From positions 1 through 64,000 of the IMG/VR virus record IMGVR_UViG_2778261689_000001: a stretch of DNA of 64,000 bases, one strand, 5' to 3'. This DNA comes from a virus. Lineage: Duplodnaviria > Heunggongvirae > Uroviricota > Caudoviricetes. The notes under the pieces were generated by a model. The model saw only the letters and a program-made list of their open reading frames with translations, had not been told where the DNA came from and made no database searches. Below are positions 8,631 to 60,797 of this stretch, piece after piece. Both the position numbers and the translations under genes were made by a program. Position 1 is the first letter of the stretch, and the number at the start of each line of letters is the position of its first letter.

Positions 8631-9482
8631 ATGATAAATTATGTCTACGGCGAACAACTGTACCAGGAGTTCGTCAGCTTCAGGGATCTCTTTCTAAAAA
8701 AAGCTGTTGCACGCGCCCAACACGTTGATACAGCCAGCGACGGTCGTCCTGTACGCCCGGTTGTCGTTCTACCGTTCAAAGAAACTGACAGCATTCAGGC
8801 TGAAATTGATAAATGGACTTTAATGGCGCGGGAACTGGAACAGTACCCAGACCTCAATATCCCAAAGACTATTTTATATCCAGTGCCTAACATCCTTCGC
8901 GGTGTGCGTAAGGTTACAACTTATCAGACAGAGGCTGTGAACAGCGTCAACATGACCGCTGGCCGCATTATTCATCTGATTGATAAGGACATTCGCATCC
9001 AAAAAAGCGCGGGGATCAATGAGCACAGTGCGAAATACATAGAGAACCTGGAAGCAACAAAAGAGCTAATGAAGCAGTACCCGGAGGATGAAAAATTCCG
9101 TATGCGCGTACACGGCTTTAGCGAAACAATGCTGCGCGTCCACTACATTTCCAGTAGCCCTAACTACAATGATGGTAAATCAGTTAGTTACCATGTGCCA
9201 CTGTGTGGCGTGTTTATCTGCGATGAAACTCTCCGTGATGGAATTATCATCAACGGTGAATTCGAAAAAGCAAAATTTAGCCTTTATGACTCCATAGAAC
9301 CGATCATCTGCGACCGCTGGCCGCAAGCAAAAATATATCGCCTGGCAGATATTGAAAATGTAAAAAAACAAATTGCCATCACTCGCGAAGAGAAAAAGGT
9401 TAAGTCAGCCGCATCAGTTACGCGCAGCCGTAAAACCAAGAAGGGGCAGCCAGTAAACGACAACCCCGAAAGCGCGCAATAA
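8631..9482 (+). CDS. c1: C1 primary immunity repressor (283 aa)
   Basis: 283 aa, starts MINYVYGEQLYQEFVSFRDLFLKK; size, N-terminus and coi-upstream/operator context match P1 C1. Confidence 0.85.
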   Translation: MINYVYGEQLYQEFVSFRDLFLKKAVARAQHVDTASDGRPVRPVVVLPFKETDSIQAEIDKWTLMARELEQYPDLNIPKTILYPVPNILRGVRKVTTYQTEAVNSVNMTAGRIIHLIDKDIRIQKSAGINEHSAKYIENLEATKELMKQYPEDEKFRMRVHGFSETMLRVHYISSSPNYNDGKSVSYHVPLCGVFICDETLRDGIIINGEFEKAKFSLYDSIEPIICDRWPQAKIYRLADIENVKKQIAITREEKKVKSAASVTRSRKTKKGQPVNDNPESAQ

Positions 9483-9485
9483 ATT

Positions 9486-9507
9486 ATGCCCGGCATCAAC
9501 CGGGCAT
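9486..9507. terminator. Bidirectional terminator hairpin between convergent c1 and ant-like genes
   Basis: ATGCCCGG-CATCAA-CCGGGCAT in the 32-bp convergent intergenic gap. Confidence 0.5.
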
Positions 9508-9514
9508 TCTTCCA

Positions 9515-10633
9515 TTATTCAGCCGCCACCGGTTTTAACAAGCCAGCATCGAGCAGTTTACGCGTCAACCACTGCTGGCCTTTACCCGTTAATTGAGGCG
9601 TCAACCGTATCTGGTAGCCATCTTCATCATCCAGCACCACTTCTTTCACCGTGAAATACCCCGCGTTGATGTACTGCTGGAACGGCACATTTTTACGTCC
9701 ACCGGACGCTATCAGGATGCCGTTCTCCCGTAACCAGACAAACAGCGCGTTTTGCTTAAGTCCAACAACCTTTGCAAAATTCCCAATCAGGATCCCTTTA
9801 GCTACTGATACCCGGTCGGCAAAATCGACCTTAGGAGCGGCGGCCACCAGCTGCTGATTTAGCTGGTGGGCTTTCTGTTCCAGAAGCTGCTTTTGTTCAG
9901 CCAGTTCGGCAGCCAGGCGTAGGGCTTCTGGTAATGTTTGGGGGATTGCAACCGGTTGCTGTTCTTTTTGCCGGAAGTAGCTGTCTTCCAGTTTTTCAAA
10001 GAATGCCCATGCCTGATCGGTTTCGAGCATTTTAGCGTGGCGGGCTGCGCCGCGTTCTGTCCAGAGGGTGAGTGAGCGAACATTGCGAGCAATTTTTACA
10101 GAGTAGTTTAAAGCTACTCTGTGCTTCAACTCGCGCAATGATTCTCCTTCAACTTTGAAAAAGTGCTTCCCTTCAACAAAGCGTACTTTGTTCTCATGAT
10201 GATTTTGGCGAATACGGATTGTTTCTGTCCCATACCCTCTAGCAAGAGTCTCGGTTGTCACTACACGCACTCCCTGCCATTCCAGAACGGGAATTTCATC
10301 AGACTGATTCTGAACAACCACCAGCTCCGATTCCTGAACTGAAGGTGCATGAATTTTTTCTGATTTAACGTTAGTTGCTTTCATTCTGTGTGCCTCCTTG
10401 CGTGCTTCGGCTGCGACGGTTGCGTAATTCAGATGACCCTGTTCGAGCAGGTATTCGCGGATATCAGACAACAGGATACGGTGAACCGCGTTCTTGTCCT
10501 TTCTCCGGTAAAGTTGTTTGGTGATCATGAAGTAGTTGGCAATAACGCCTGGTATATCCCTGGTACTGATACAGGCAGTGTGCTGTTCAATTGCCTCGAT
10601 CATCTCTTCACGGGTAACTAACGATGTTCTCAT
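9515..10633 (-). CDS. Antirepressor-like protein (372 aa): N-terminal domain paralogous to ORF 60798-61841, central Bro-N-like segment, C-terminal Ant/KilAC-type domain
   Basis: C-terminal ...IPQTLPEALRLAAELAEQKQ...KVDFADRVSVAKGILIGNFAKVVGLKQNALF...GKGQQWLTRKLLDAGLLKPVA is shared with ORFs 60798-61841 and 59833-60633; start overlaps the icd-like stop (ATGA). Confidence 0.7.
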   Translation of the reverse strand: MRTSLVTREEMIEAIEQHTACISTRDIPGVIANYFMITKQLYRRKDKNAVHRILLSDIREYLLEQGHLNYATVAAEARKEAHRMKATNVKSEKIHAPSVQESELVVVQNQSDEIPVLEWQGVRVVTTETLARGYGTETIRIRQNHHENKVRFVEGKHFFKVEGESLRELKHRVALNYSVKIARNVRSLTLWTERGAARHAKMLETDQAWAFFEKLEDSYFRQKEQQPVAIPQTLPEALRLAAELAEQKQLLEQKAHQLNQQLVAAAPKVDFADRVSVAKGILIGNFAKVVGLKQNALFVWLRENGILIASGGRKNVPFQQYINAGYFTVKEVVLDDEDGYQIRLTPQLTGKGQQWLTRKLLDAGLLKPVAAE

Positions 10634-10851
10634 AGTCCCTCCTGAGCAGAAGCGTTAACAGGGAGGCACCAGTAACTGAGAGAATTGCGTGAATCAGTGG
10701 AAAAACGGGCAGAGAAAATACATGGGGCGTCAGGAAGCTGAGAGCGGGCCTCATCTTCTGTTGGTGCAATAACGAAGTGATAGTGACGTTTTTGGCAGGA
10801 GTAAAAGCGCCAGATAAATTCAGGATGAGTTGGGGTAGGGATAGTAGCCAT
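10630..10851 (-). CDS. Icd-like small protein (73 aa)
   Basis: MATIPTPTHPEFIWRFYSCQKRHYHFVIAPTEDEARSQLPD... is paralogous to ORF 61838-62059; ATG preceded by AAGGAGG; track ORF extended to 11193 is probably over-long. Confidence 0.6.
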   Translation of the reverse strand: MATIPTPTHPEFIWRFYSCQKRHYHFVIAPTEDEARSQLPDAPCIFSARFSTDSRNSLSYWCLPVNASAQEGL

Positions 10852-10924
10852 ATTGGCAGCCTCCTTAGACGTTGGTATGTAACCACCGCAGAAGAGACCA
10901 ATCTTGCTGGCGGTGGACTGTACG

Positions 10925-11005
10925 GAGTTGGCCTTACTGGCGTCCAAGGTAACCAGCCTACCCGAAGGTAGCCCCATACAGCCCACCATTGTAGAGGTGT
11001 GCGTG
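10925..11005 (-). ncRNA. Candidate c4-like antisense RNA core (second copy)
   Basis: Segment between the operator and icd-like gene shares AACCAGC...CGAAG...CCCCA...CCCACCAT blocks with 62125-62205 but differs between them; boundaries not determined. Confidence 0.3.
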
Positions 11006-11169
11006 TACGCCGATACAAAAAAAGACGCGAGCGGCGTCTGTATCGCCTTAGACTTAAGCGGGAGGCCAATCCCGGCACCCGTTTTAATGAGGTGCCTGAT
11101 AAGCATAAACCGAAAATGCCTCAAGGCGCAAGAGGTCAGGTTCAATGTAACATCGGTAGTTAAAAAACA

Positions 11170-11186
11170 CAATTCATTAGAGCAAA
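11170..11186 (-). promoter_or_regulatory. C1 operator upstream of the second c4/icd/ant-like cassette
   Basis: CAATTCATTAGAGCAAA, 14/17 to operator consensus. Confidence 0.55.
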
Positions 11187-11189
11187 TGT

Positions 11190-12674
11190 TCATTCATTAA
11201 GCCATGCCAGAGCTTCATCAACCTGCGCTTCGTCTTCGACGCTAAGCACTTCATCCTGGGGAACATAATCCGCCAGCATAGCGAAACAATATGTATCCCA
11301 ATGGTCTGGTGAGTGCAGGTTGAGTTTTTTCTTCATATCCTCCTTACTCATCACCTTCCATTGACCTGCGGAGTTAATCCCTACAGGGATTTTCGACGCT
11401 TCCTCAATAGTTTCATTACCCTTATCCAGTCTCATACGACCAGATTTTACGGCCTCTGCGGCTTGAACATTGGCATAAGCACGTTTATCAAAGTACAGGC
11501 TCTTATCTTCACGGCTATGCATCTTTTTACCCCAGCGTATACGCTGTACGGTAATACCATAATACTCGTACATCAGATCCGCCGTTGCTTTACCCAGGCC
11601 ATCGCCGTCTATCGCTATGGTGATATTGGGGAATCGCTCAGGATTACATTCTGCGAAAATTTTGGCGGCAAGCTGCGTTTCTGTAACGTCTGTGTATTCC
11701 AGCATTCGATAGTTGATTACACGGCGTTTATTTCGCTGGCCGGACACCATCATGATATTGATAACGGACTTATCCCGTCCTGTACCACCAGCAACGTCCA
11801 CACATGCAAGCCAGCCCCATCCTTTGGCAATCTTGACTTTCCGCCGCGTCGCACGTTCAACCTCATCACGTCCAAGAAGGAAGCCATCCTGTGATTTAGG
11901 GAATAGTCCGCGTACCTTAATCATGTACATAGGGTTATCACGCCCGCCGTACTCCGCCAGCTTCATTTTGATAAATGCTGGAGTTACCAGCGGTGATTCC
12001 TCACTGTTAAGCGTGATCGCCGTATAAACGCCATCAGGGTTACCAGGACGCTTGGCCAGTTTATGGTGAGTATCGTAGAAATAGCCGCTTGGGCGTGTAG
12101 GCTGTGACAGTAATAAGATGCGGTTATCCTGTCCGGTAAGAGCACCGGTGATGATACCGAAAGCTCTATCACTGACACCGGAGGCTTCATCGATAATATA
12201 CAGAAGATGATCTGCGTGTTCACCGGCGAGAGCTTCTTCACTTCCCAGACGAAAGCCCTTCGGTACTACAGTCCATACACCTTTACCAGTAACCTCATAG
12301 AAAGCGGTTTCTGTCAGAACAAAATAATCAGCAAGCCATGGAAAACGGCTGGTGGCAGTAGCCCAGTTTATCTTGATGTACTTGAATATACCGGTCATTA
12401 CCTGCTGAATTTTGTTCGCAACGATAATGGCGCGGGCACCGGGATACATGATTATGAACAACATGATCATGATAGAAGTCATGTCTGATTTCCCGGTACC
12501 GTGACCAGACGAAACAGATGTCTTGCTACCCTGTTCCTGCACAGACTCAATAATCAGATCCTGCTGCCAGGTAGGTGTTTTGCCGAACAAAACATCAGCG
12601 GCAGCAATCCAGTCATAACGATATAGCGCCACCAGCTCGCGCCAACGTGGATCCGTTACGCAACTTCTGGCCAT
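11190..12674 (-). CDS. pacB: PacB terminase large subunit (494 aa)
   Basis: 494 aa, immediately downstream of and overlapping pacA; size and order as in P1. Confidence 0.8.
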
Positions 12675-15749: not shown

Positions 15750-16130
15750 CTACTCCGCAGAACCATACAATCTACGTAACGTGTCGGCGACAGAAGATAC
15801 AGATATCTCGCCAGTCGCAGCGCCTACAGTAAGGTCTGCCAGTTCAGGTGAATCAAATACCTGCACCCCGTTACGGCGTAGAAATAGCAGCGCGCTGTTT
15901 AGCGCGGTACGCTTATTGGCATCATTGAATATATGCCCTCTCGCTGTAGCCACCAGGTAGGTGGCGGAGACTTCGAAAAGGTCGGTGATCTCTTCGTAGG
16001 CAACTCTGGCCTGAACTCTCCCGATAATGGCCTCTGCCCTGCCCGGATCTGACATGCCAGGCAGGCCGCCGTAGCGGCTTATATTCGCATCATGAAGCGC
16101 AATAAGTTCTTCCGGTGATATATGCCTCAT
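15750..16130 (-). CDS. doc: Doc toxin (Fic-fold kinase, 126 aa)
   Basis: [126 protein letters not shown] matches P1 Doc as I recall it. Confidence 0.92.
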
Positions 16131-16351
16131 TATCGGTTAACCAGTTCCTTGTTGGTGGAGTCCAGGGTGTCAAACAGGGATGCAAATTCAGCATCCAGCG
16201 CCGCTTTTTTGTAGGCTTCGAAAGTAGCCTTGCTGACAATTACTGCTGGCTCACGGCCTCTGCGGGTGATTTCAACCTCTTCCCCGGCTTCAACATTGTT
16301 GAGCACTTCAGAAAGGTTGCCGCGCGCGGTACGGAAGTTAATGGATTGCAT
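16130..16351 (-). CDS. phd: Phd antitoxin (73 aa)
   Basis: [73 protein letters not shown]; stop overlaps doc start. Confidence 0.92.
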
Positions 16352-16420: not shown

Positions 16421-16701
16421 AGCTTAAATAACCGGACAATCATCAAATTCCCCACTTCGGGCATCATTGATGACATGAGTGATCACACCAAAAACAGCAT
16501 TGCTGCCCACCATCGCCCTTCTTGCTAGTGCTTAACCTCTTTAGAGGTTTAATCCACAAACACGTGATAAGTATGGGTCTTATACACAAATAGAAAATCC
16601 ATATACAAAAAAGGAACGCGCCGGCCTGACCCGGCGTGTATATAATAACCAGTAGATTAATTACCCCGTCTTTAAACTGATACCGCAGTAATTATTAATA
16701 C

Positions 16702-17106
16702 TCACTTTTTGTCCAGTAATGTGTTCAGTGACTTATTCAAAAGCTTAAATGAATCACCGGACATTTCGAAAATTTCATTTTCTATGTTAATAACCTCGCC
16801 TTTTCGGTAAAAAACTGTTCTTATCGCTGGTGACAAAAAAATATCAATCCAGAATGTAACATCATTTCGGACACCAAGTTTTTTGTATATATGTCTCTTT
16901 TGTAACGATACAGTTTTATTACTACGAGACCGGAGGTGTGATATTTTTGTAGAACTATACCCTTTCATTATTAACTCAAGAACATCACACTCAGTTTTTG
17001 TCAGCGATGCAAATACCCATAAGTGAACAGTAATATCATGTTCTTTTATTTCACTCTTTATATAGCAAATGTTTTTTTCATTTCCATATATCAATCCCCA
17101 CATCAA
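16702..17106 (-). CDS. LuxR/FixJ-family HTH regulator (134 aa)
   Basis: LuxR-type HTH segment LTKTECDVLELIMKGYSSTKISHLRSRSNKTVSLQKRHIYKKLGV; AT-rich gene. Confidence 0.6.
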   Translation of the reverse strand: MMWGLIYGNEKNICYIKSEIKEHDITVHLWVFASLTKTECDVLELIMKGYSSTKISHLRSRSNKTVSLQKRHIYKKLGVRNDVTFWIDIFLSPAIRTVFYRKGEVINIENEIFEMSGDSFKLLNKSLNTLLDKK

Positions 17107-17271
17107 AAATAAATTTTCATCTAGCTATAGATGGTATACGTTAAGTAATGCATGCCGCACATTCCTGTCATTTATCAGAATTTGAGACTGAAGATGATAA
17201 AGTTACCTAACCAGCATTCCTCCTCCTGATATTTGACGCTGTTGCCGGATTATACCCGGCCCCAACAATAA

Positions 17272-17305
17272 GCCGGTATCTGAGTGATAACAGATACCGG
17301 CTTGT
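17272..17305 (-). terminator. Strong hairpin terminator after the Skp-like gene
   Basis: 13-bp stem AAGCCGGTATCTG / CAGATACCGGCTT with 8-nt loop. Confidence 0.55.
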
Positions 17306-17340
17306 GAATCGCCTCAACAAACGTTATCGGGAACTAATGG

Positions 17341-17883
17341 TTATTTATCTTCTTCTGTTCCCTCTTTACTTGTCACCTCCTCCTGAACTTTCACTTCCAC
17401 TTTAGGTAACTGATTAAAAACCAGATGTTCTTTTTCAACCAGAGCCATAATTTCTTTTGTGATATCAGCTGAATCGTTATGTGCAAGCACAACACCTGAA
17501 GACAACACAGCAATATTTCCTGTGTTATCTTTTCTCCAGTTATTTATGGCATTATCTATTACACGGGATAACACCATTTTTGCATTGTGCTCCTCGATAA
17601 CATATTGCCTCTCCAGTTTTTGTCTGGCATCAAGAAGCAGTGCATCTTTATTTTCGTTATCTGCGAATGCTTTTAGCGCATCCTTGTATCCCTTTTCAAG
17701 AATAATCTTAACTTCACTCAGATGCGTTCTGGCCAGTTCTCCGGCAGAAGACTGATTATAAACAGCATCAATATTAACAACTGCAATTTCTTTTGATTTA
17801 TTCATATAAATAACACCAGTAAATCCAATCAGCAACAGCAACAATACTGCATTAGCAACAGAAAATTTCATTACAGAACTCAT
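17341..17883 (-). CDS. Skp/OmpH-family periplasmic chaperone-like protein (180 aa)
   Basis: Signal-anchor N-terminus; EIAVVNIDAVYNQ and IAVLSSGVVLAHNDSADITKEIMALV resemble the conserved Skp N- and C-terminal strands flanking a coiled-coil segment. Confidence 0.55.
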   Translation of the reverse strand: MSSVMKFSVANAVLLLLLIGFTGVIYMNKSKEIAVVNIDAVYNQSSAGELARTHLSEVKIILEKGYKDALKAFADNENKDALLLDARQKLERQYVIEEHNAKMVLSRVIDNAINNWRKDNTGNIAVLSSGVVLAHNDSADITKEIMALVEKEHLVFNQLPKVEVKVQEEVTSKEGTEEDK

Positions 17884-17930
17884 TATGACTACCCGGATGT
17901 GGCAGGAGGGATCCTCCTGCCACTATGTGA

Positions 17931-54655: not shown

Positions 54656-56245
54656 ATGTCTCAATATTCAATTCAACAGTCATTAGGTAATGCATCCGGC
54701 GTCGCGGTTAGCCCGATCAATGCCGATGCGACGTTATCTACCGGTGTTGCATTAAATAGCAGCTTGTGGGCTGGTATTGGCGTATTTGCGCGTGGCAAGC
54801 CGTTTACTGTTCTTGCGGTTACTGAGTCCAATTACGAAGATGTTCTCGGCGAACCGCTGAAGCCGTCTTCCGGCTCACAGTTCGAACCAATTCGCCATGT
54901 GTACGAAGCTATTCAGCAAACGTCTGGTTATGTTGTCCGTGCTGTTCCGGATGATGCGAAGTTCCCGATTATTATGTTCGATGAATCAGGCGAACCGGCT
55001 TACAGTGCGTTGCCATACGGTTCTGAAATTGAACTTGATAGCGGCGAAGCCTTTGCTATCTACGTTGATGATGGTGATCCGTGTATTTCACCTACCCGTG
55101 AGTTAACCATCGAAACGGCAACAGCGGACAGCGCGGGTAATGAACGCTTCCTCTTAAAACTGACCCAGACGACTTCGCTCGGTGTGGTAACGACCCTGGA
55201 GACACACACTGTGTCTTTGGCGGAAGAAGCGAAAGATGACATGGGCCGCTTGTGTTATCTGCCTACGGCTCTGGAAGCCCGTTCTAAATATCTGCGCGCG
55301 GTTGTTAATGAAGAGCTGATTTCGACGGCGAAAGTAACAAATAAAAAATCGTTGGCGTTCACTGGTGGTACCAACGGTGATCAGTCGAAAATATCAACAG
55401 CTGCGTACCTGCGTGCGGTGAAAGTGCTGAACAATGCGCCGTACATGTACACCGCTGTTCTTGGCCTGGGCTGCTATGACAATGCGGCTATCACCGCATT
55501 AGGTAAAATCTGTGCAGATCGCCTTATTGATGGCTTCTTTGATGTCAAACCGACATTAACGTACGCAGAAGCACTACCAGCTGTTGAGGATACCGGTTTA
55601 CTTGGTACCGATTATGTAAGCTGTTCTGTCTATCACTACCCGTTCTCCTGCAAAGACAAATGGACCCAATCCCGTGTGGTCTTTGGTCTGTCTGGCGTGG
55701 CGTATGCGGCGAAAGCTCGTGGCGTCAAGAAAAACTCTGATGTCGGCGGTTGGCATTACTCACCGGCTGGTGAAGAACGTGCCGTCATTGCTCGTGCGTC
55801 AATTCAACCGCTGTATCCGGAAGATACCCCGGACGAAGAAGCAATGGTCAAGGGCCGTCTCAATAAAGTATCTGTTGGCACCTCTGGCCAGATGATCATC
55901 GACGATGCTTTAACTTGCTGCACGCAGGATAACTATCTGCACTTCCAGCACGTCCCATCCCTGATGAATGCAATCAGCCGTTTCTTTGTCCAGTTAGCCC
56001 GACAGATGAAGCATAGCCCGGACGGTATTACTGCGGCTGGCCTGACTAAAGGGATGACCAAACTTTTAGATCGCTTTGTCGCCTCCGGCGCTCTGGTGGC
56101 TCCTCGTGATCCTGATGCTGACGGTACAGAACCGTATGTGCTGAAAGTTACGCAGGCGGAATTCGATAAATGGGAAGTAGTCTGGGCCTGCTGCCCGACT
56201 GGCGTAGCCCGTCGTATCCAGGGCGTACCGCTGCTTATTAAGTAA
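54656..56245 (+). CDS. Putative tail sheath protein (gp22-like, 529 aa)
   Basis: About 57 kDa, follows the head gene and precedes a tube-sized gene; assignment by size and position. Confidence 0.45.
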   Translation: MSQYSIQQSLGNASGVAVSPINADATLSTGVALNSSLWAGIGVFARGKPFTVLAVTESNYEDVLGEPLKPSSGSQFEPIRHVYEAIQQTSGYVVRAVPDDAKFPIIMFDESGEPAYSALPYGSEIELDSGEAFAIYVDDGDPCISPTRELTIETATADSAGNERFLLKLTQTTSLGVVTTLETHTVSLAEEAKDDMGRLCYLPTALEARSKYLRAVVNEELISTAKVTNKKSLAFTGGTNGDQSKISTAAYLRAVKVLNNAPYMYTAVLGLGCYDNAAITALGKICADRLIDGFFDVKPTLTYAEALPAVEDTGLLGTDYVSCSVYHYPFSCKDKWTQSRVVFGLSGVAYAAKARGVKKNSDVGGWHYSPAGEERAVIARASIQPLYPEDTPDEEAMVKGRLNKVSVGTSGQMIIDDALTCCTQDNYLHFQHVPSLMNAISRFFVQLARQMKHSPDGITAAGLTKGMTKLLDRFVASGALVAPRDPDADGTEPYVLKVTQAEFDKWEVVWACCPTGVARRIQGVPLLIK

Positions 56246-56254
56246 GGGAATACA

Positions 56255-57070
56255 ATGAGCAAAAACTTTTTTCAATCCGGGGCATTTTTGGGGAATGGAC
56301 TGTCTCGTTTCGCTTTGAACTCTGATCCTGTGCAGCTGATGGAGTCTGTCCGAGCAAGCGCCGAACCGCCAACAGATCCGGTTATTAATAATAATCCGGA
56401 ACCGGCGGCACAGACTAACGATAACGTTCCATCTGCCCCGGCTCCTGAGCAAATCCTGGAAGGGAAAGACGGTAAAGAATGGACCGTCGAACAGGCGCAC
56501 CAGATGATTCTAGAAGCTGCAAATCGAAGTGCTATGCAGAATGCGTTGAGTGATGCGGCCGACGCCGTTTTCGCCTGGGCTGATAGCGGTGATCTGACTT
56601 TCGACTCCCTTGATGGTTTCGTTCAGGCTATCGCTGGTATCTCTGATGACGACGACTCCGAAGTTACAGAAGAACAGGACGATGCCTATAACGAAGCATG
56701 GGCAAATGTTGCTGACTTCCTCGCAGCATGCGGTGTAGATGATGACCTGATCGAAGCACTGGCTGACGATGAAGACGACGACGCAGCTGCTGATGTTGGT
56801 GCCTCTATCGCTGGTTTAGATAGCGACGACCGCGACGAACTGGAAGCGGCGTTTGTTGTTGCTGGCACTTCTGATGAAATGCTGACTGAAGCATTTAAGA
56901 AGGTTGTTCGTAACGGTGAGATCAAACTCATCCGTAAACGCCTGCGGAAAAAACGTCTGACTGCGGCTCAAAAATCGGCGCTGAAAAAAGCGCGTCGAAA
57001 AGCCCAGACCGGCGCGGCAAAACTTGCCCGCAAAAAGTCAATGAAACTGCGCCGTAAGCGCCTTGGCTAA
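56255..57070 (+). CDS. Hypothetical structural protein with acidic core and strongly basic C-terminus (271 aa)
   Basis: D/E-rich middle, K/R-rich tail (KRLRKKRLTAAQKSALKKARRKAQ). Confidence 0.35.
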   Translation: MSKNFFQSGAFLGNGLSRFALNSDPVQLMESVRASAEPPTDPVINNNPEPAAQTNDNVPSAPAPEQILEGKDGKEWTVEQAHQMILEAANRSAMQNALSDAADAVFAWADSGDLTFDSLDGFVQAIAGISDDDDSEVTEEQDDAYNEAWANVADFLAACGVDDDLIEALADDEDDDAAADVGASIAGLDSDDRDELEAAFVVAGTSDEMLTEAFKKVVRNGEIKLIRKRLRKKRLTAAQKSALKKARRKAQTGAAKLARKKSMKLRRKRLG

Positions 57071-57105
57071 AGGAGGAGGCCGGAGAACTCCGGCCTTTAA
57101 CTTGA

Positions 57106-57687
57106 ATGGCACCTATTCCTTATGGGGTTTACAGCCAGGCTGACGGTGTATCGCCATATCTGAAAGTTACTTTAACGAACTCTCAGTACCAGGTTACCGG
57201 ATATATCAGCCAGGGAGCGGCAATGAACATGGCCCAGAATTGGGAAGCGCCGTTTACCGGTATGTCCATGGGATCTGTTGCTGGTGCCTTCAGTGGTTTT
57301 GCGCAGGTTGGTACTGAAACAACGTCGGTTGCCCGTTGGAACAGCTTAATGGTTTGGGAAGGGGGAACACCGCCGACTTTCACGCTGCCAGTAACTTTCA
57401 TCGCTTTGTTTGACCCATTCACGGAGGTTTCAGGAGCTATCGCCGCATTGTCAGCGATGATTAGCCCGGAACTTAAAGATGCCAGTATTGGTGGTCGAAT
57501 CCCGGAGCGTGTGACGCTAAACATTGGTCGCCGGATCAACATCATTGATGTCGCTATCCAGGACATAAGTTTCGATCTCGATGCGCCCAGGGACAGCAAT
57601 GGGCATTTCCTGAAAAACACCGTCAACCTCCAGTTGACCGGTTCTTCGATATATAACAGCTCCGATATTGTTCGGGCGTTCCAGTAA
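57106..57687 (+). CDS. Putative tail tube protein (193 aa)
   Basis: Size and position after the sheath-like gene; RBS AAGGAGGAGG upstream. Confidence 0.4.
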   Translation: MAPIPYGVYSQADGVSPYLKVTLTNSQYQVTGYISQGAAMNMAQNWEAPFTGMSMGSVAGAFSGFAQVGTETTSVARWNSLMVWEGGTPPTFTLPVTFIALFDPFTEVSGAIAALSAMISPELKDASIGGRIPERVTLNIGRRINIIDVAIQDISFDLDAPRDSNGHFLKNTVNLQLTGSSIYNSSDIVRAFQ

Positions 57688-57698
57688 AAGGATTTTAT

Positions 57699-58208
57699 AT
57701 GGGGCACAATAACACTAAGGGAAACCGTAAATTTATTAAGGGCCGCTATACTGCCAACGCGGCCAAAGGCGAACGACTGGTATCTTCTGAATTCCAGCTC
57801 ACTTTTGCAGGCCATGAAGATATCAGCGTACTGGTTCGCACGTCGCAAATTCCTGAAATGACCCGCGAGGATGTGGAGGACTATGGTCCGAATGGTGTGA
57901 AGTTCAACCAGCACGGTCCAATTCGAAACTCTGGGGAAATCCAGGTCCAGTGCGTGGAGACTATCGAAGGCGATATTCTTCAGTTCATTAAAGATCGCAT
58001 TGCGGCGAAGGACTATGTTGATATCACGATGGCTGCTACCCCTGAATCCAAATCTTCCGGGGTTAACGCTGTGACAAAAGCTGCTACAACAATTGAAATG
58101 TTGGACTGCAAAATCTACAGTGATGCAATCGACTTTAGTACCGAAGATGTGACTGCCGCTGTGCGCCCGTCACTTCGTATCGTCTACAACTGGATTGAGT
58201 GGGATTAA
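57699..58208 (+). CDS. Hypothetical tail-associated protein (169 aa)
   Basis: Last gene of the rightward structural operon. Confidence 0.35.
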   Translation: MGHNNTKGNRKFIKGRYTANAAKGERLVSSEFQLTFAGHEDISVLVRTSQIPEMTREDVEDYGPNGVKFNQHGPIRNSGEIQVQCVETIEGDILQFIKDRIAAKDYVDITMAATPESKSSGVNAVTKAATTIEMLDCKIYSDAIDFSTEDVTAAVRPSLRIVYNWIEWD

Positions 58209-58231
58209 GAGTCATCCCTTGTATTTTAAAG

Positions 58232-58252
58232 CTCCTTCGGGAGCTTTTTTAT
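58232..58252. terminator. Bidirectional rho-independent terminator
   Basis: AGCTCCTTCGGGAGCT hairpin with T-run on + strand and A-run upstream. Confidence 0.65.
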
Positions 58253-58324
58253 TTGGAGAGGAAAGGGTGCATTGAGGATACCTGACACACGAAGAGTGGC
58301 GAGGATCTCTCCCCGCCAGGTCTC

Positions 58325-58480
58325 TTACCTTTCAGATTCGTAGGCTGTGAAGACAGTGACCTCCGTCTGGCCGGTTCGGATTCGTACCTCGCAGAGGTCT
58401 TTCCTCGTTACCAGTGCCGTCACAATGACGGTTAAACAGATGACGATCAGAGCGATTAACATCGCTTTTTGCTGCTTCAT
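58325..58480 (-). CDS. hok: Hok/Gef-family type I toxin (51 aa); not in ORF track
   Basis: Manual translation MKQQKAMLIALIVICLTVIVTALVTRKDLCEVRIRTGQTEVTVFTAYESER aligns with Hok (...LTRKSLCEIRYRDG.REVAAFMAYES); ATG preceded by AAGGAGAAG. Confidence 0.75.
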   Translation of the reverse strand: MKQQKAMLIALIVICLTVIVTALVTRKDLCEVRIRTGQTEVTVFTAYESER

Positions 58481-58538
58481 AGCCTGCTTCTCCTTGACCT
58501 TTTGGTCGGTAAGAGGCTAATCTACGTATGCTAAGCAT
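58332..58538 (-). CDS. mok: mok-like overlapping reading frame
   Basis: 68-aa ORF overlapping hok in another frame and starting upstream of it, as in hok/mok/sok loci. Confidence 0.45.
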   Translation of the reverse strand: MLSIRRLASYRPKGQGEAGYEAAKSDVNRSDRHLFNRHCDGTGNEERPLRGTNPNRPDGGHCLHSLRI

Positions 58539-58600
58539 AGATATGGCCTCAGATTAATGTTAAGCGTCTTGCAGGACGCGTAATGTTATCTGGGGCTTTC
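58494..58600 (+). ncRNA. Candidate Sok-like antisense RNA with its promoter
   Basis: TTGACC (58494-58499) with TAATCT 18 bp downstream, reading antisense to the mok/hok leader; boundaries not determined. Confidence 0.3.
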
Positions 58601-58661
58601 TTCTATCTGCTTTTCGGGTAATGCCTGAAGCAGATAGCCTCAAGCACCCGCAACGATTGTA

Positions 58662-58907
58662 TCAATGTCTGGCTTTTTTTCTATAGAAATCACCTGGAAG
58701 GGTGAATATCCACATCAGAAGAAATGTTGCAGCAAACATGATCCCTAATGGCCAGACCGCGCCAAAGAAAATCCATACTAAGATCTCCTCTGCTTGTTCT
58801 TTGCGGTCGATATCGACAAGCATTTTTCGGCTGAACATGTATACACAGAAGCCAATACAAACATATCCTGCAAAAGCGATCGCTAACTGTAAAAAATCAG
58901 ATTGCAT
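58662..58907 (-). CDS. Small integral membrane protein (81 aa from internal Met)
   Basis: Two hydrophobic helices; ATG at 58907 preceded by GAGGTCGGAG; track ORF start at 58988 overlaps the operator. Confidence 0.4.
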   Translation of the reverse strand: MQSDFLQLAIAFAGYVCIGFCVYMFSRKMLVDIDRKEQAEEILVWIFFGAVWPLGIMFAATFLLMWIFTLPGDFYRKKARH

Positions 58908-58937
58908 CTCCGACCTCAAACTGAAAACGCCAGGTGA

Positions 58938-58954
58938 CTCCAGATTAGAGCAAT
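58938..58954 (-). promoter_or_regulatory. C1 operator-like site
   Basis: ATTAGAGCAAT core at 58944-58954. Confidence 0.5.
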
Positions 58955-58957
58955 CTA

Positions 58958-59803
58958 TCACCCTCTGAATCCTGCCGGTATACCCCATTGTTCGTTATCT
59001 TTATTTTTGGCTAAAACCGCATTAAGAGCTTCGTTTACCGTCATGCAATGCGGCAGATTATCGAAGTTTGATACCCCGCCAATATCAGGAGAACGCTTGT
59101 TCTTCAGGTAAGCATATTTCCGCGCTGCCGCCTCTACCTTCTGCTTGAACTCATGTTTTTGAGTGCGTTTTTTGGATAACCGCAGATTGTCAGCCTTTGC
59201 TTTTGCCTCAGCGATCCATGAAGTCAATTTTTTGAGTCTGGTCGTTCCGGCACCGCCGGAAACTGATCTTTTTGTTTTTTTAACTTGTGACTTCTTATTC
59301 TTTATTGCCACGTCATCCTGACAGGGGGAGGGGGTATCATTTTGACATGGGGGTGTGGATAAAAAATTAAATAAAGCCAATGTCTTAGCGAGAACAGCTT
59401 TAACCTTGGTTGCCGCTGAAGAGATCTTTAATTTGCTTTCAATCAGCGCATTTTTGGCTTGTTGTGCGAAGGCCAAAAAGGATGGTGTAAACCGGTACAG
59501 GTTAGCGCGACGTTCACGGTGATCGCCGATAACAATCTCTACAGACAGAATTCCTTTGTTTACAGCTTCACGGAATGCACGAACGACGGTTGATTGGCTA
59601 TAACCAGTTTCTGCCGCGATCAGGCGGTGAGGCTTGTGAATGAAGTATTCACTGGTTGTTGCCGCGAGATTTGCACATTGCGACAGGATATGCCCGGCGC
59701 TACGGGATAGACCGGAGTGTGTTACAAAGCAGGCCAATTCATAGCCAGAAAAAGTAAAATCGCTCATCGTTATACAGCTCAGGAAAGTGACTTTAGCCAG
59801 CAT
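58958..59803 (-). CDS. repL: RepL lytic-replicon initiator (281 aa)
   Basis: 281 aa, downstream of the kilA-like gene in an operator-controlled operon, as for P1 kilA-repL. Confidence 0.7.
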   Translation of the reverse strand: MLAKVTFLSCITMSDFTFSGYELACFVTHSGLSRSAGHILSQCANLAATTSEYFIHKPHRLIAAETGYSQSTVVRAFREAVNKGILSVEIVIGDHRERRANLYRFTPSFLAFAQQAKNALIESKLKISSAATKVKAVLAKTLALFNFLSTPPCQNDTPSPCQDDVAIKNKKSQVKKTKRSVSGGAGTTRLKKLTSWIAEAKAKADNLRLSKKRTQKHEFKQKVEAAARKYAYLKNKRSPDIGGVSNFDNLPHCMTVNEALNAVLAKNKDNEQWGIPAGFRG

Positions 59804-59832
59804 TACAATGCTGGTGGTTCTTACTACGTCTG

Positions 59833-60633
59833 TTAGCGCGTTGCCGCGACAGGTACCAGCACACCAGCATCAAGCAATCGCTTCATCAGCCACTGCTGAC
59901 CTTTGCCGGTTATACGAGTCGTGAAAGAAATCCTGCTTCCATTGCTTGTATCGATCACGGTTTCTTTAAGGGTGAAATACCCACGGGATATGTATTCTTG
60001 TTTGGGGACGTTCCTGCGTTCACCGGTTGCGATCAGAATTCCGTTATCACGCAACCAGGTGAAGAGATAGTTTTGGCCCAGGCCGAGCACTTTGGCATAG
60101 TTGCCGATTAGAACCCCGCTGGCGGTAGCAACGCGTTCGGCGAATTCGACTTTAGGTGCATCCATCAGCATTTTTTGCTCCAGCCGTTGCTTTTGCTCTG
60201 CCAGGTCAGCAGCCAAACGGAGAGCTTCTGGGAGGCTCTTCGGAATAGCAGGTTGTAATCTTCCGGCTCGATAGTCGATAAATGTCTGGTTTACCTTCAG
60301 CCGAAACGCGGGAGAAATCCAGCCTGCGTACTCCACTGCGAGCAATTCATGGGCAAAAGTGCCGCCGCCACGGCCTTCGAACGAAACTATGCAATTCTGC
60401 ATAGTTTCTTTTTCAAGCTCTTCGATGAGCTGTTTGGCTGACAGCGTTCTTAGCCATTGAGCTGGCGCTTTATGGGCACCGAGTCCGCTCGCTCTGTGTA
60501 GAGCATTAAGGTTGTAACGGCCAGCGCGGTCGGTCGTAATTTCAACACCACAAATAACGGGCAGAGTGGTTGAAGGATCGACATTTTGATGAAGGTTTGA
60601 TATATTCATATCCGCATTGAATGTTTGTTGCAT
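59833..60633 (-). CDS. kilA: KilA-like protein (KilA-N domain plus Ant-type C-terminal domain, 266 aa)
   Basis: N-terminal KilA-N-like region; C-terminal LPEALRLAADLAEQKQ...GILIATGERRNVP...GKGQQWLMKRLLDAGVL shared with the two Ant-like proteins. Confidence 0.65.
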   Translation of the reverse strand: MQQTFNADMNISNLHQNVDPSTTLPVICGVEITTDRAGRYNLNALHRASGLGAHKAPAQWLRTLSAKQLIEELEKETMQNCIVSFEGRGGGTFAHELLAVEYAGWISPAFRLKVNQTFIDYRAGRLQPAIPKSLPEALRLAADLAEQKQRLEQKMLMDAPKVEFAERVATASGVLIGNYAKVLGLGQNYLFTWLRDNGILIATGERRNVPKQEYISRGYFTLKETVIDTSNGSRISFTTRITGKGQQWLMKRLLDAGVLVPVAATR

Positions 60634-60702
60634 TTTTTCTCCAAATTTGCATCAACCTTCAATCACCAGCTCGAAATGGTGATTCTTTGCACTTAGAAAA
60701 CG

Positions 60703-60719
60703 AAATTTATTAGAGCAAA
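60703..60719 (-). promoter_or_regulatory. C1 operator upstream of kilA-repL
   Basis: AAATTTATTAGAGCAAA, 16/17 to consensus. Confidence 0.7.
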
Positions 60720-60797
60720 TTTTTCTAACTCGATCCAGATCGGGTTGGACGATCTGCTCAGAAACCTGCCAGTTTGCTGGCAGGTTTTTTTCTTTTG

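What the first reader, a model, noticed from the sequence alone, without database searches (positions are those of the whole stretch)
58325..58600. Unannotated hok/mok/sok-type type I toxin-antitoxin locus next to the tail operon
A 51-aa minus-strand ORF (58325-58480) with a strong RBS encodes a clear Hok-family peptide and is overlapped by a mok-like frame. A candidate antisense promoter lies on the opposite strand. It is below the ORF-track size cut-off. The element would then carry two addiction systems (phd/doc and hok), and I do not recall a hok locus in P1.
Basis: partly seen in the sequence, partly recalled or inferred. Interest (0 to 1): 0.55.

Follow-up and report, generated by a model that had tools for sequence, protein, structure and literature searches.

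The report
Intact hok/sok toxin-antitoxin in P1-like plasmid
This P1-type phage-plasmid carries a complete, textbook hok/mok/sok killer-peptide and antisense-RNA module where laboratory phage P1 has three other genes; the module is real, but public databases already annotate it in hundreds of identical plasmids, so it is ordinary.

Summary
The 51-aa minus-strand ORF at 58325-58480 is a full-length Hok/Gef peptide (Pfam E 2.4e-22). It is 47/51 identical to HokW, which has been tested experimentally. An overlapping 68-codon mok frame starts at 58538. The leader matches Rfam RF01794 at 114.9 bits against a gathering score of 59. An antisense Sok unit can be placed by homology: promoter 58494-58523 (+), RNA about 58530-58600 (+).

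The full transcript (58649 to about 58226) folds with z = -8.5. Its 5' end pairs with a segment 47 nt after the hok stop codon (tac/fbi). Covariation across 28 loci from six genera supports that fold.

The locus lies in a 693-bp segment (58251-58943) that replaces pmgF-rlfB-rlfA of reference P1. Classical P1 has no hok at all. phd/doc is also present in the window, so the element carries two addiction systems.

The exact arrangement occurs in 216 PLSDB plasmids and 199 complete E. coli genomes, where PGAP calls the gene hokD. That is about twice as many plasmids as carry the reference P1 arrangement.

Verdict: a genuine and apparently intact hok/sok locus, most likely a post-segregational killing module. 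It is already known and of low interest.

The parts
58656..58683 (-). Candidate hok mRNA promoter: -35 TAGAAA (58683-58678), 16-nt spacer, extended -10 TGaTACAAT (-10 hexamer 58661-58656).
   Evidence: Consensus scan, 9/12 matches with TG. The -10 aligns with TAGAAT of 933W at the same distance from GGGTGC. Homology to other hok loci begins at the -10/+1. Promoter activity was not tested.
58226..58649 (-). Predicted full-length hok mRNA, about 424 nt. The +1 is at GGGUGC; the 3' end lies after the hairpin at 58228-58247.
   Evidence: Rfam model position 1 maps to 58649. Homology with 40+ hok loci starts at +1 and ends just after fbi. MFE -165.7 kcal/mol, z -8.46, 0/100 shuffles as stable. The 3' end is inferred.
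58638..58649 (-). tac element: the 5'-terminal GGGUGCUUGAGG, which pairs with fbi.
   Evidence: MFE helices 1-6/380-385 and 7-12/373-378. Duplex -21.0 kcal/mol, 0/200 shuffles as good. Compensatory U-A to C-G change in 6 sequences.
58530..58600 (+). Predicted Sok antisense RNA, about 71 nt: a single-stranded 5' tail, a long hairpin and a CUUUCUU tail. It is complementary to hok mRNA nt 50-120, which includes the mok SD and AUG.
   Evidence: Ends placed by alignment to the annotated 71-nt sokW of phage 933W. Fold -31.8 kcal/mol, z -5.3. Six compensatory pairs in the hairpin (helix 5). No transcript was observed here.
58494..58523 (+). Sok promoter: -35 TTGACC, 18-nt spacer, -10 TAATCT.
   Evidence: Aligns with TTGCCT-17-TAACCT (sokW, shown active by mutation in PMC8621323) and TTGCGC-17-TATCCT (R1 type). 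The TAnnnT pattern is kept in 23 of the 28 loci; the five gef-type loci read CACTCT. The generic scan did not call it, because the -10 matches only 3 of 6.
58332..58538 (-). mok reading frame, 68 codons, +1 frame relative to hok. SD GAGG at 58550-58547, 8 nt before the ATG.
   Evidence: ORF list. The ATG is conserved in 27 of 28 loci. SD and ATG both lie inside the Sok-complementary stretch.
58325..58480 (-). hok toxin gene, 51 aa, with SD AAGGAG at 58495-58490.
   Evidence: Pfam PF01848 78.7 bits (cut-off 22), profile 1-42/42. 47/51 identical to HokW. 96% identical to HokD/RelF, using a sequence recalled from memory. PHROG 251.
58265..58277 (-). fbi (fold-back inhibition) element CCUCAAUGCACCC, 47 nt after the hok stop codon.
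   Evidence: Pairs with tac in the MFE structure. A partner is found 45-56 nt after the stop codon in the 27 Gef/HokW-type loci; the duplex search did not cleanly resolve the partner in the R1-type locus.
58228..58247 (.). Hairpin AAAGCUCC-N4-GGAGCUUU shared with the P1 backbone. It is the bplB terminator on the + strand and the probable 3' hairpin of hok mRNA on the - strand.
   Evidence: Terminator scan, + strand only. The same hairpin is present in reference P1. On the - strand only three U follow the stem, so termination efficiency there is uncertain.
58251..58943 (.). 693-bp segment that replaces the 1826-bp pmgF-rlfB-rlfA segment of reference P1. It contains the hok/sok module (58265-58661) and a small membrane ORF.
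   Evidence: BLAST of the window against NC_005856. Junction sequences.
58662..58907 (-). Context only, not part of the TA: an 81-aa ORF with two hydrophobic stretches that look like TM segments (108 aa if started at 58988). The hok -35 lies in its 3' end.
   Evidence: ORF list. PGAP annotates an 81-aa hypothetical protein. phrog_3772, unknown function, E 1e-53. Present in 524 E. coli genomes, almost always on plasmids.
15753..16351 (-). Context: the phd/doc type II addiction operon, the element's second addiction system.
   Evidence: tblastn with Phd (100%) and Doc (97.6%) sequences recalled from memory.

Best explanation
This is an intact hok/mok/sok type I toxin-antitoxin locus of the Gef/HokD/HokW branch, carried by a natural P1-family phage-plasmid.

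Proposed mechanism, following the R1 paradigm:
1. A constitutive promoter (58683-58656) produces a stable hok mRNA of about 424 nt.
2. That mRNA is translationally inert because its 5' end (tac) is paired with the fbi element downstream of hok, and the mok and hok ribosome-binding regions are buried in long-range helices.
3. Slow 3' trimming removes fbi and lets the RNA refold into a translatable form.
4. While the plasmid is present, the short-lived 71-nt Sok RNA is made from the opposite strand. It pairs across the mok SD and AUG, blocks mok translation (to which hok translation is coupled) and marks the duplex for RNase III.
5. In a cell that loses the plasmid, Sok decays first. Mok and Hok are then translated from the remaining stable mRNA, and the 51-aa Hok peptide inserts into the inner membrane and kills the cell.

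The locus therefore acts as a second post-segregational killing system alongside phd/doc for a one-to-two-copy plasmid prophage.

Shown here: sequence identity of all parts, the fold, covariation, the context and the distribution.
Inferred from homologues: transcription, RNA half-lives, toxicity and plasmid stabilisation.
For: - Hok peptide: Pfam E 2.4e-22 over the full profile; PHROG 251 E 4.9e-32; 47/51 identical to HokW. HokW is toxic, locates to the inner membrane and is neutralised by sokW RNA made from its own promoter (PMC8621323).
- Leader: Rfam RF01794 at 114.9 bits against a gathering score of 59, covering model positions 1-157.
- DNA: 86.5% identical to 933W hokW/sokW over exactly +1 to fbi.
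- Fold: z -8.46. The tac/fbi duplex is -21.0 kcal/mol with 0/200 shuffles as good, and its partner lies at a conserved distance in the 27 Gef/HokW-type loci.
- Covariation: 85.6% of cells paired against about 41% when partners are slid; 40 pairs with changes on both sides against about 18.
- Sok: the promoter aligns with the experimentally mutated sokW promoter and with R1's. The hairpin plus U tail folds with z -5.3. Sok covers the mok SD and AUG.
- mok: the ATG is conserved in 27 of 28 loci.
- No IS or frameshift disrupts any element, and the segment is 99.8-100% conserved in 216 plasmids and 199 E. coli genomes.
- Isolated, propagating phages such as phi456 and vB_EcoM-Ro157c2YLVW carry it.
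Against: - There is no experimental evidence for this locus.
- The Sok -10 (TAATCT) matches only 3 of 6 consensus positions, the spacer is 18 nt rather than 17, and the generic promoter scan missed it.
- On the minus strand the 3' hairpin is followed by only three U, so the 3' end of the mRNA is uncertain.
- The mok frame differs from that of its nearest relative, hokW: +1 here, in frame there.
- The truncated-RNA refolding I computed shows a new 5' hairpin, but I could not confirm the R1-style target hairpin.
- The peptide scores below the cut-offs of two narrower NCBIfam models.
- With phd/doc and par already present, the added stabilisation may be small.
- The one prophage homologue that has been studied, hokW, was reported to help phage release rather than maintenance.
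Confidence: 0.8

Rival explanations
1. Induction-coupled killing or lysis helper. The locus mainly serves the lytic cycle, as reported for hokW-sokW of prophage Sp5. After derepression, Sok falls and Hok is made, which damages the membrane early and increases or accelerates phage release. In this element the trigger could be read-through from the C1-controlled kilA-repL operon into hok and across the convergent Sok promoter.
For: - hokW-sokW is 87% identical in DNA. In Sp5, sokW disappears and HokW appears on induction, and deleting the locus halves phage yield (PMC8621323).
- In the window, hok lies directly downstream of kilA-repL and in the same orientation. Only a weak terminator-like hairpin (5-bp stem, 58705-58690) lies between them.
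- The replacement removed PrlfA and cut the C1 operator Orlf.
Against: - Read-through is not shown.
- The locus has its own promoter and the full R1-type set of elements for post-segregational control.
- P1 already has a dedicated holin, antiholin and endolysin (lydA, lydB and lyz are annotated in P1).
- This role is not exclusive of post-segregational killing.
Confidence: 0.2
2. Anti-phage exclusion module. Infection by a lytic phage shuts off host and plasmid transcription, Sok decays, Hok kills the cell early, and the lysogen population is protected.
For: R1 hok/sok on a high-copy plasmid reduced T4 plating efficiency and plaque size, as cited in the discussion of PMC8621323. Variable regions of P1-like elements often hold defence cargo (general knowledge, not tested here).
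Against: The effect reported for R1 is modest and needed a high copy number, whereas P1-like plasmids are low copy. I ran no PADLOC or defence-context analysis, and no neighbouring defence genes stood out.
Confidence: 0.1
3. Decayed, non-functional hok remnant, like several chromosomal hok loci of E. coli K-12.
For: Some chromosomal relatives found here keep only the hok coding part and lack the leader (L009, L013 and L040 match only from query position about 207 onward). The Sok -10 is weak.
Against: Every regulatory element is present and uninterrupted. tac/fbi complementarity is preserved. The ORFs are open. The sequence is nearly invariant in hundreds of plasmids.
Confidence: 0.05

Closest known systems
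hokW-mokW-sokW of Stx2 phages 933W / Sakai prophage 5
   Same: - 86.5-87.6% DNA identity over the whole transcript from +1 to fbi.
- Hok 47/51 identical.
- Same tac and fbi sequences apart from the bulged base.
- Same Sok hairpin, including the 18-nt extension relative to the Rfam consensus.
- Located on a temperate phage.
- Experimentally shown to be a type I TA (PMC8621323).
   Different: - A 1-nt insertion (GGUCAAGG) puts mok in the +1 frame (68 aa) instead of in frame with hok (70 aa). The same base gives the Sok promoter an 18-nt spacer and a TTGACC -35.
- The Sok 5' tail and its target differ at several positions, so cross-recognition is doubtful.
- The host element is a plasmid prophage rather than an integrated lambdoid one.
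- The neighbours differ: the lytic replicon and a tail gene.
hok/sok (parB) of plasmid R1, the prototype
   Same: - Same architecture and order: promoter, tac, Sok terminator/target hairpin, mok ATG, AGCCUCUUACC box, hok SD, hok, GC-rich hairpin, fbi, terminator hairpin.
- The Sok promoter is at the same position.
- The replicon is a plasmid, so post-segregational killing is the expected role.
   Different: - Hok is only 42% identical.
- No nucleotide BLAST similarity; the relationship shows only in the alignment and the covariance model.
- R1 has a longer 5' hairpin and lacks the 18-nt hairpin extension.
- fbi and tac have the R1-specific sequence GGCGCUUGAGG/GAAGCGCC.
hokD (relF) and hokC (gef) chromosomal loci of E. 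coli
   Same: The peptide is 96% identical to HokD/RelF and 82% to Gef (sequences recalled from memory). PGAP names the identical plasmid protein WP_001313475.1 'HokD'.
   Different: The hokD-type chromosomal copies found here match only the coding part and the 3' region and lack the mok/Sok leader (L009, L013, L040), in line with what is known of K-12 hokD. The window locus has the full regulatory set. The label 'hokD' therefore describes the peptide, not the locus type.
phd/doc of P1 (type II addiction system)
   Same: Same presumed biological job, killing or arresting plasmid-free segregants. It is present on the same element at 15753-16351.
   Different: The antitoxin is a protein degraded by ClpXP and the toxin is a Fic-family kinase (established knowledge). 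It is unrelated in sequence and mechanism to the RNA-controlled membrane peptide.

Membership tests
Hok/Gef toxin family (Pfam PF01848) | Peptide of about 50 aa that matches the family HMM above its gathering score over the full length. | tested here: met
   78.7 bits against a cut-off of 22, E 2.4e-22, profile 1-42/42. PHROG 251 E 4.9e-32.
Hok/Gef toxin family (Pfam PF01848) | Hydrophobic N-terminal transmembrane segment followed by the conserved TRKxLCE motif and a polar C-terminal part. | tested here: met
   LIALIVICLTVIVTALV followed by TRKDLCEV. The motif is invariant across the 28 aligned loci, with TRKSLCEI in R1.
Hok/Gef toxin family (Pfam PF01848) | Membrane-damaging toxicity on expression. 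| not testable with these tools
   Shown only for the 47/51-identical HokW (PMC8621323).
NCBIfam NF007279 (Hok subfamily) and NF007290 (HokA equivalog) | Score at or above the curated cut-off. | tested here: not met
   49.5 bits against 73, and 38.1 against 89. These are narrower models, so failing them does not affect membership of the Pfam family. PGAP nevertheless names the identical protein HokD.
hok/sok-type type I TA locus (R1 parB paradigm) | Leader RNA matching the curated covariance model. | tested here: met
   RF01794 at 114.9 bits against a gathering score of 59, model 1-157/157. The match is on the hok-sense strand; the + strand scores only 21 bits. The model therefore describes the hok leader, and Sok is the complement of part of it.
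hok/sok-type type I TA locus (R1 parB paradigm) | mok reading frame that starts upstream of hok and runs across its start region, with its SD and AUG inside the Sok-complementary stretch. | tested here: met
   ATG at 58538, 68 codons, SD GAGG at 58550-58547. Sok is the complement of mRNA nt 50-120.
hok/sok-type type I TA locus (R1 parB paradigm) | cis-antisense Sok gene with its own promoter and an intrinsic terminator-type hairpin. | tested here: met
   The promoter aligns with the sokW and R1 promoters. Hairpin plus U tail, z -5.3. Six compensatory pairs. This is sequence-level evidence only; the transcript was not observed.
hok/sok-type type I TA locus (R1 parB paradigm) | Long-range 5'-3' pairing (tac/fbi) that locks the full-length mRNA. 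| tested here: met
   12 bp with one bulge in the MFE structure. -21.0 kcal/mol, 0/200 shuffles as good. 90.7% of cells paired, with compensatory changes.
hok/sok-type type I TA locus (R1 parB paradigm) | Activation by 3' processing and refolding into a form that is translatable and binds Sok. | tested here: inconclusive
   Removing fbi in silico makes the 5' end refold into a local hairpin, but the rest of the MFE structure changes little. The R1-style target hairpin was not verified.
hok/sok-type type I TA locus (R1 parB paradigm) | Unstable antitoxin RNA with a stable toxin mRNA; post-segregational killing and plasmid stabilisation. | not testable with these tools
   Needs rifampicin chase Northern blots and plasmid-loss assays.

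The most novel reading that the evidence does not exclude
In P1-like phage-plasmids the hok/sok module may be wired to the lytic switch. It sits at the 3' end of the C1-repressed kilA-repL operon and in the same orientation, with only a weak hairpin between. The recombination that brought it in removed PrlfA and cut the C1 operator Orlf.

On induction, read-through transcription would flood the cell with hok-containing RNA and collide with the convergent Sok promoter. An addiction module would then become an induction-coupled membrane-damaging helper or a fail-safe, generalising the hokW/Sp5 observation to plasmid prophages.
Probability: 0.12. Interest if true: 0.45.

Novelty: already known. 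Interest (0 to 1): 0.15.

Why it matters
The practical value is modest.

- Laboratory P1 is not representative of wild P1-like phage-plasmids at this position. In PLSDB the hok-bearing form is about twice as frequent as the pmgF-rlfB-rlfA form: 216 plasmids against 99.
- These elements therefore usually carry two unrelated addiction systems, which is relevant to how persistently they are maintained. [quoted passage not shown]
- Comparative papers on P1-like elements list rlfA-rlfB-pmgF as a hypervariable region but do not say that a hok/sok module commonly occupies it (PMC9603915).
- None of this changes what is understood about hok/sok or about P1.

Tried and rejected
- The generic sigma-70 scan did not call the Sok promoter, because its -10 matches only 3 of 6. 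The promoter was placed by alignment to sokW and R1 instead.
- NCBIfam models for the Hok subfamily and for HokA scored below their cut-offs. They are not used as evidence.
- The Rfam 'sok' match is on the hok-sense strand, and the antisense strand scores only 21 bits. The Rfam strand therefore cannot be used to orient Sok.
- Nucleotide BLAST finds no similarity to the R1-type locus. The R1 row in alignment A1 was also cut before its fbi. I repaired this with a separate duplex analysis, in which RNAduplex picked a split partner for R1 that includes GAAGCGCC.
- In-silico 3' truncation did not reproduce the full R1 refolding pathway. This remains inconclusive.
- Literature searches for hok on P1-like elements found only hok on other plasmids of the same strains, or nothing. 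The P1 genome paper (PMC523184) is not held.
- To avoid the 535-feature table of NC_005856, I tested absence of hok on the lab P1 record OP279344, which is deleted for res and mod. The deleted res-mod stretch itself was therefore not scanned. For NC_005856, megablast of window 56000-61000 found only one matching place.
- Pfam, NCBIfam and PHROGs give no function for the 81-aa upstream ORF or for Mok.
- I did not use the large protein-homology searches or structure prediction. They were not needed.

Full report
**1. The observation**

The minus strand of 58325-58480 carries an ATG-initiated ORF of 51 codons, MKQQKAMLIALIVICLTVIVTALVTRKDLCEVRIRTGQTEVTVFTAYESER. AAGGAG lies 9 nt upstream of its ATG. 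A 68-codon ORF (58332-58538, minus strand) overlaps it in another frame.

The peptide matches Pfam HOK_GEF over the whole profile: 78.7 bits against a cut-off of 22, E 2.4e-22. It also matches PHROG 251 'MokW-like host killing' at E 4.9e-32. The upstream leader (58475-58649, minus strand) matches Rfam RF01794 at 114.9 bits against a gathering score of 59.

One caveat concerns the Rfam hit. It lies on the hok-sense strand and runs from the mRNA 5' end to the hok AUG. The model named 'sok' is in effect a model of the hok leader.

**2. The replicon and the context**

The window is a P1-family phage-plasmid, 99.6% identical over 56000-61000 to GenBank MH422554 'Punavirus P1'. On the minus strand the gene order is kilA (59833-60633), repL (58958-59803), a small membrane ORF, then hok. 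The tail gene bplB (57699-58208, + strand) converges on hok.

Reference P1 (NC_005856) is collinear up to 58250 and again from 58944. Between those points it has 1826 bp encoding pmgF, rlfB and rlfA, where the window has 693 bp.

- The left junction lies just after the bplB terminator hairpin, which both genomes share.
- The right junction lies inside the C1 operator Orlf. P1 reads ATTGCTCTAATTATAAC and the window reads ATTGCTCTAATCTGGAG.

A lab P1 genome (OP279344) has no Hok-like ORF. Its best tblastn E-value is 0.14, against 1e-29 for the window as positive control. It also has no Rfam sok hit.

**3. Anatomy of the locus**

Homology to more than 40 hok loci from Escherichia, Shigella, Kluyvera, Citrobacter, Photorhabdus, Erwinia and relatives starts within three bases of 58649 and ends at about 58265. 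The conserved unit is therefore the transcript.

- *hok promoter.* A promoter-like site lies at the right distance from the +1 GGGUGC: TAGAAA, 16 nt, then TGaTACAAT, spanning 58683-58656. Its -10 aligns with TAGAAT of phage 933W.
- *mRNA fold.* The 424-nt RNA from 58649 to 58226 folds to -165.7 kcal/mol, z -8.46. In that fold nucleotides 1-12 (GGGUGCUUGAGG, 'tac') pair with CCUCAAUGCACCC at 58277-58265 ('fbi'), 47 nt after the hok stop codon. The mok start region (58538-58521) pairs with 58295-58278. The conserved CUCUUACC box (58515-58508) pairs with GGUAAGAG across the hok stop codon.
- *Sok.* On the + strand, TTGACC (58494-58499), 18 nt, TAATCT (58518-58523) aligns with the sokW promoter (TTGCCT-17-TAACCT) and the R1 Sok promoter (TTGCGC-17-TATCCT). 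By homology with the annotated 71-nt sokW, Sok would run from about 58530 to 58600. That RNA has a free 5' tail, a long hairpin and a CUUUCUU tail: -31.8 kcal/mol, z -5.3. It is complementary to mRNA nucleotides 50-120, which include the mok SD (GAGG, 58550-58547) and AUG (58538).

**4. Comparative support**

I projected the window's MFE structure onto a 28-sequence alignment. It is 85.6% paired, against about 41% when partners are slid by 1-3 columns. It has 40 pairs with changes on both sides, against 11-21 in the slid versions.

- The tac/fbi helix is 90.7% paired and shows a U-A to C-G exchange in Photorhabdus.
- The Sok hairpin has six compensatory pairs.

Because MAFFT offset some fbi elements, I also scored the duplex sequence by sequence. 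In the 27 Gef/HokW-type loci the 5' 12-13 nt find a partner 45-56 nt after the hok stop codon. For the window the duplex is -21.0 kcal/mol, and 0 of 200 shuffles do as well. The R1-type row is the weakest: its duplex is split, and 24 of 200 shuffles do as well.

The mok ATG is conserved in 27 of 28 loci. Its frame varies:

- in frame with hok in most loci, including hokW and the R1-type locus I fetched;
- a short 19-codon frame in some;
- the +1 frame here and in three others.

In the window this results from a single inserted base (GGUCAAGG). The same base also lengthens the Sok promoter spacer to 18 nt and creates the TTGACC -35.

**5. Mechanism**

The closest characterised relative is hokW-sokW of Stx2 phage Sp5/933W, at about 87% DNA identity and 47/51 peptide identity. 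In that system (PMC8621323):

- HokW arrests growth and locates to the inner membrane;
- sokW, expressed from its own promoter, neutralises it, partly through RNase III and Hfq;
- mutating the sokW promoter unmasks toxicity.

All the elements of the R1 paradigm are present here in the same order. The best-supported reading is therefore a functional post-segregational killing module:

1. A stable mRNA is kept inert by the tac/fbi lock.
2. It is slowly activated by 3' trimming.
3. Sok covers the mok start and so represses hok.
4. Sok decays first in plasmid-free cells, and Hok is then made.

Transcription, RNA half-lives, toxicity and stabilisation are inferred, not shown.

Weak points:

- The Sok -10 is poor; the generic scan did not call it.
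- The U-tract after the 3' hairpin on the minus strand is short.
- The in-silico refolding of the 3'-trimmed RNA was inconclusive.

**6. Rivals**

The Sp5 study found that hokW-sokW increases phage release after induction rather than serving maintenance. In the window, hok lies downstream of the C1-controlled kilA-repL operon and in the same orientation. Only a weak hairpin (58705-58690) lies between them, and the Orlf operator is truncated. An induction-coupled role driven by read-through is therefore conceivable but unproven.

Phage exclusion, reported for R1 hok/sok against T4 and cited in PMC8621323, and inactivity are less likely. Nothing in the locus looks decayed.

**7. Novelty**

The exact arrangement bplB-hok-ORF-repL occurs at 99.8-100% identity in 216 PLSDB plasmids and 199 of 5426 complete E. 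coli genomes. PGAP annotates the ORF there as 'type I toxin-antitoxin system toxin HokD'. MH422554 labels it 'MokW'. Isolated phages such as phi456 and vB_EcoM-Ro157c2YLVW carry it. The reference P1 cassette occurs in only 99 PLSDB plasmids.

A comparative paper lists rlfA-rlfB-pmgF as one of eight hypervariable regions of P1-like phage-plasmids and does not mention hok (PMC9603915). I found no paper that discusses hok on a P1-like element.

The finding is a correct identification of a known kind of system that the databases already annotate. Only the literature commentary is missing.

**8. Verdict**

The locus is already known and of low interest (0.15).

Noticed in passing
window 9482-11187: A 1.7-kb segment between c1 (8631-9482) and pacB (11190-12674) has no match of 400 bp or more in lab P1. 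It carries a second C4 antisense RNA hit (10906-10993, 75.9 bits), an adjacent isrK hit (11018-11095, 60.8 bits) and a 372-aa ORF (9515-10633, -) whose C-terminal part resembles KilA. This looks like a second immI-type antisense-RNA and antirepressor module, in addition to the canonical c4/ant at about 62100-62300.
   Followed up: partly
window 58943/58944: The repL-side junction of the hok-bearing replacement falls inside P1's C1 operator Orlf (Op55). 11 of its 17 nt are kept and the rest replaced, and the PrlfA promoter is lost. The DNA downstream of repL has probably lost its own C1-controlled promoter and operator.
   Followed up: partly
window 58662-58907 (or to 58988): An 81-aa ORF with two hydrophobic stretches that look like TM segments lies between repL and hok (phrog_3772, unknown function; no Pfam or NCBIfam hit). 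It occurs in 524 complete E. coli genomes, almost always on plasmids, and in more genomes (309 with full length) than the complete hok arrangement (199). It therefore also occurs in other cassette variants.
   Followed up: partly
window 58497 (the extra A on the + strand, T in GGTCAAGG on the - strand): One inserted base relative to hokW has three effects at once. It shifts mok from in frame to the +1 frame relative to hok, widens the Sok promoter spacer from 17 to 18 nt, and turns the -35 into TTGACC. The same variant occurs in Kluyvera (L027), an Enterobacteriaceae isolate (L025) and a soil MAG (L024).
   Followed up: yes
alignment A1 columns about 124-150 (window about 58545-58522): The least conserved part of the hok leader across 28 loci is the stretch around the mok ATG that is complementary to the Sok 5' tail; only the ATG itself is fixed. 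This fits diversification of Sok/target specificity between co-resident hok loci. E. coli genomes with any match to the 901-nt query have a median of 2 and up to 10 matching places, most of them hok loci.
   Followed up: no
window 16505-27425: About 11 kb next to phd/doc has no megablast match of 400 bp or more to the lab P1 genome. It is probably the variable cargo region (pmgT to humD, 'region 8' of PMC9603915). I did not examine its content.
   Followed up: no
L014 (Acinetobacter idrijaensis, 275-bp contig) and L026 (Xanthomonas pisi, 431-bp contig): Tiny contigs in assemblies of non-enteric species are 100% and 88% identical to this hok locus. L014 includes the P1-backbone junction. These are most likely contamination of those assemblies with E. 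coli or P1-like DNA. Kluyvera cryocrescens L006 (16.7-kb contig) carries the same P1-type arrangement at 98.5%.
   Followed up: no
Rfam RF01794 match, window 58475-58649 (-): The Rfam family called 'sok antitoxin' matches the hok-sense strand, from the mRNA 5' end through the hok AUG, at 114.9 bits. The true Sok strand scores only 21 bits. Automated annotation based on this model would place 'sok' on the wrong strand and make it about twice too long.
   Followed up: yes
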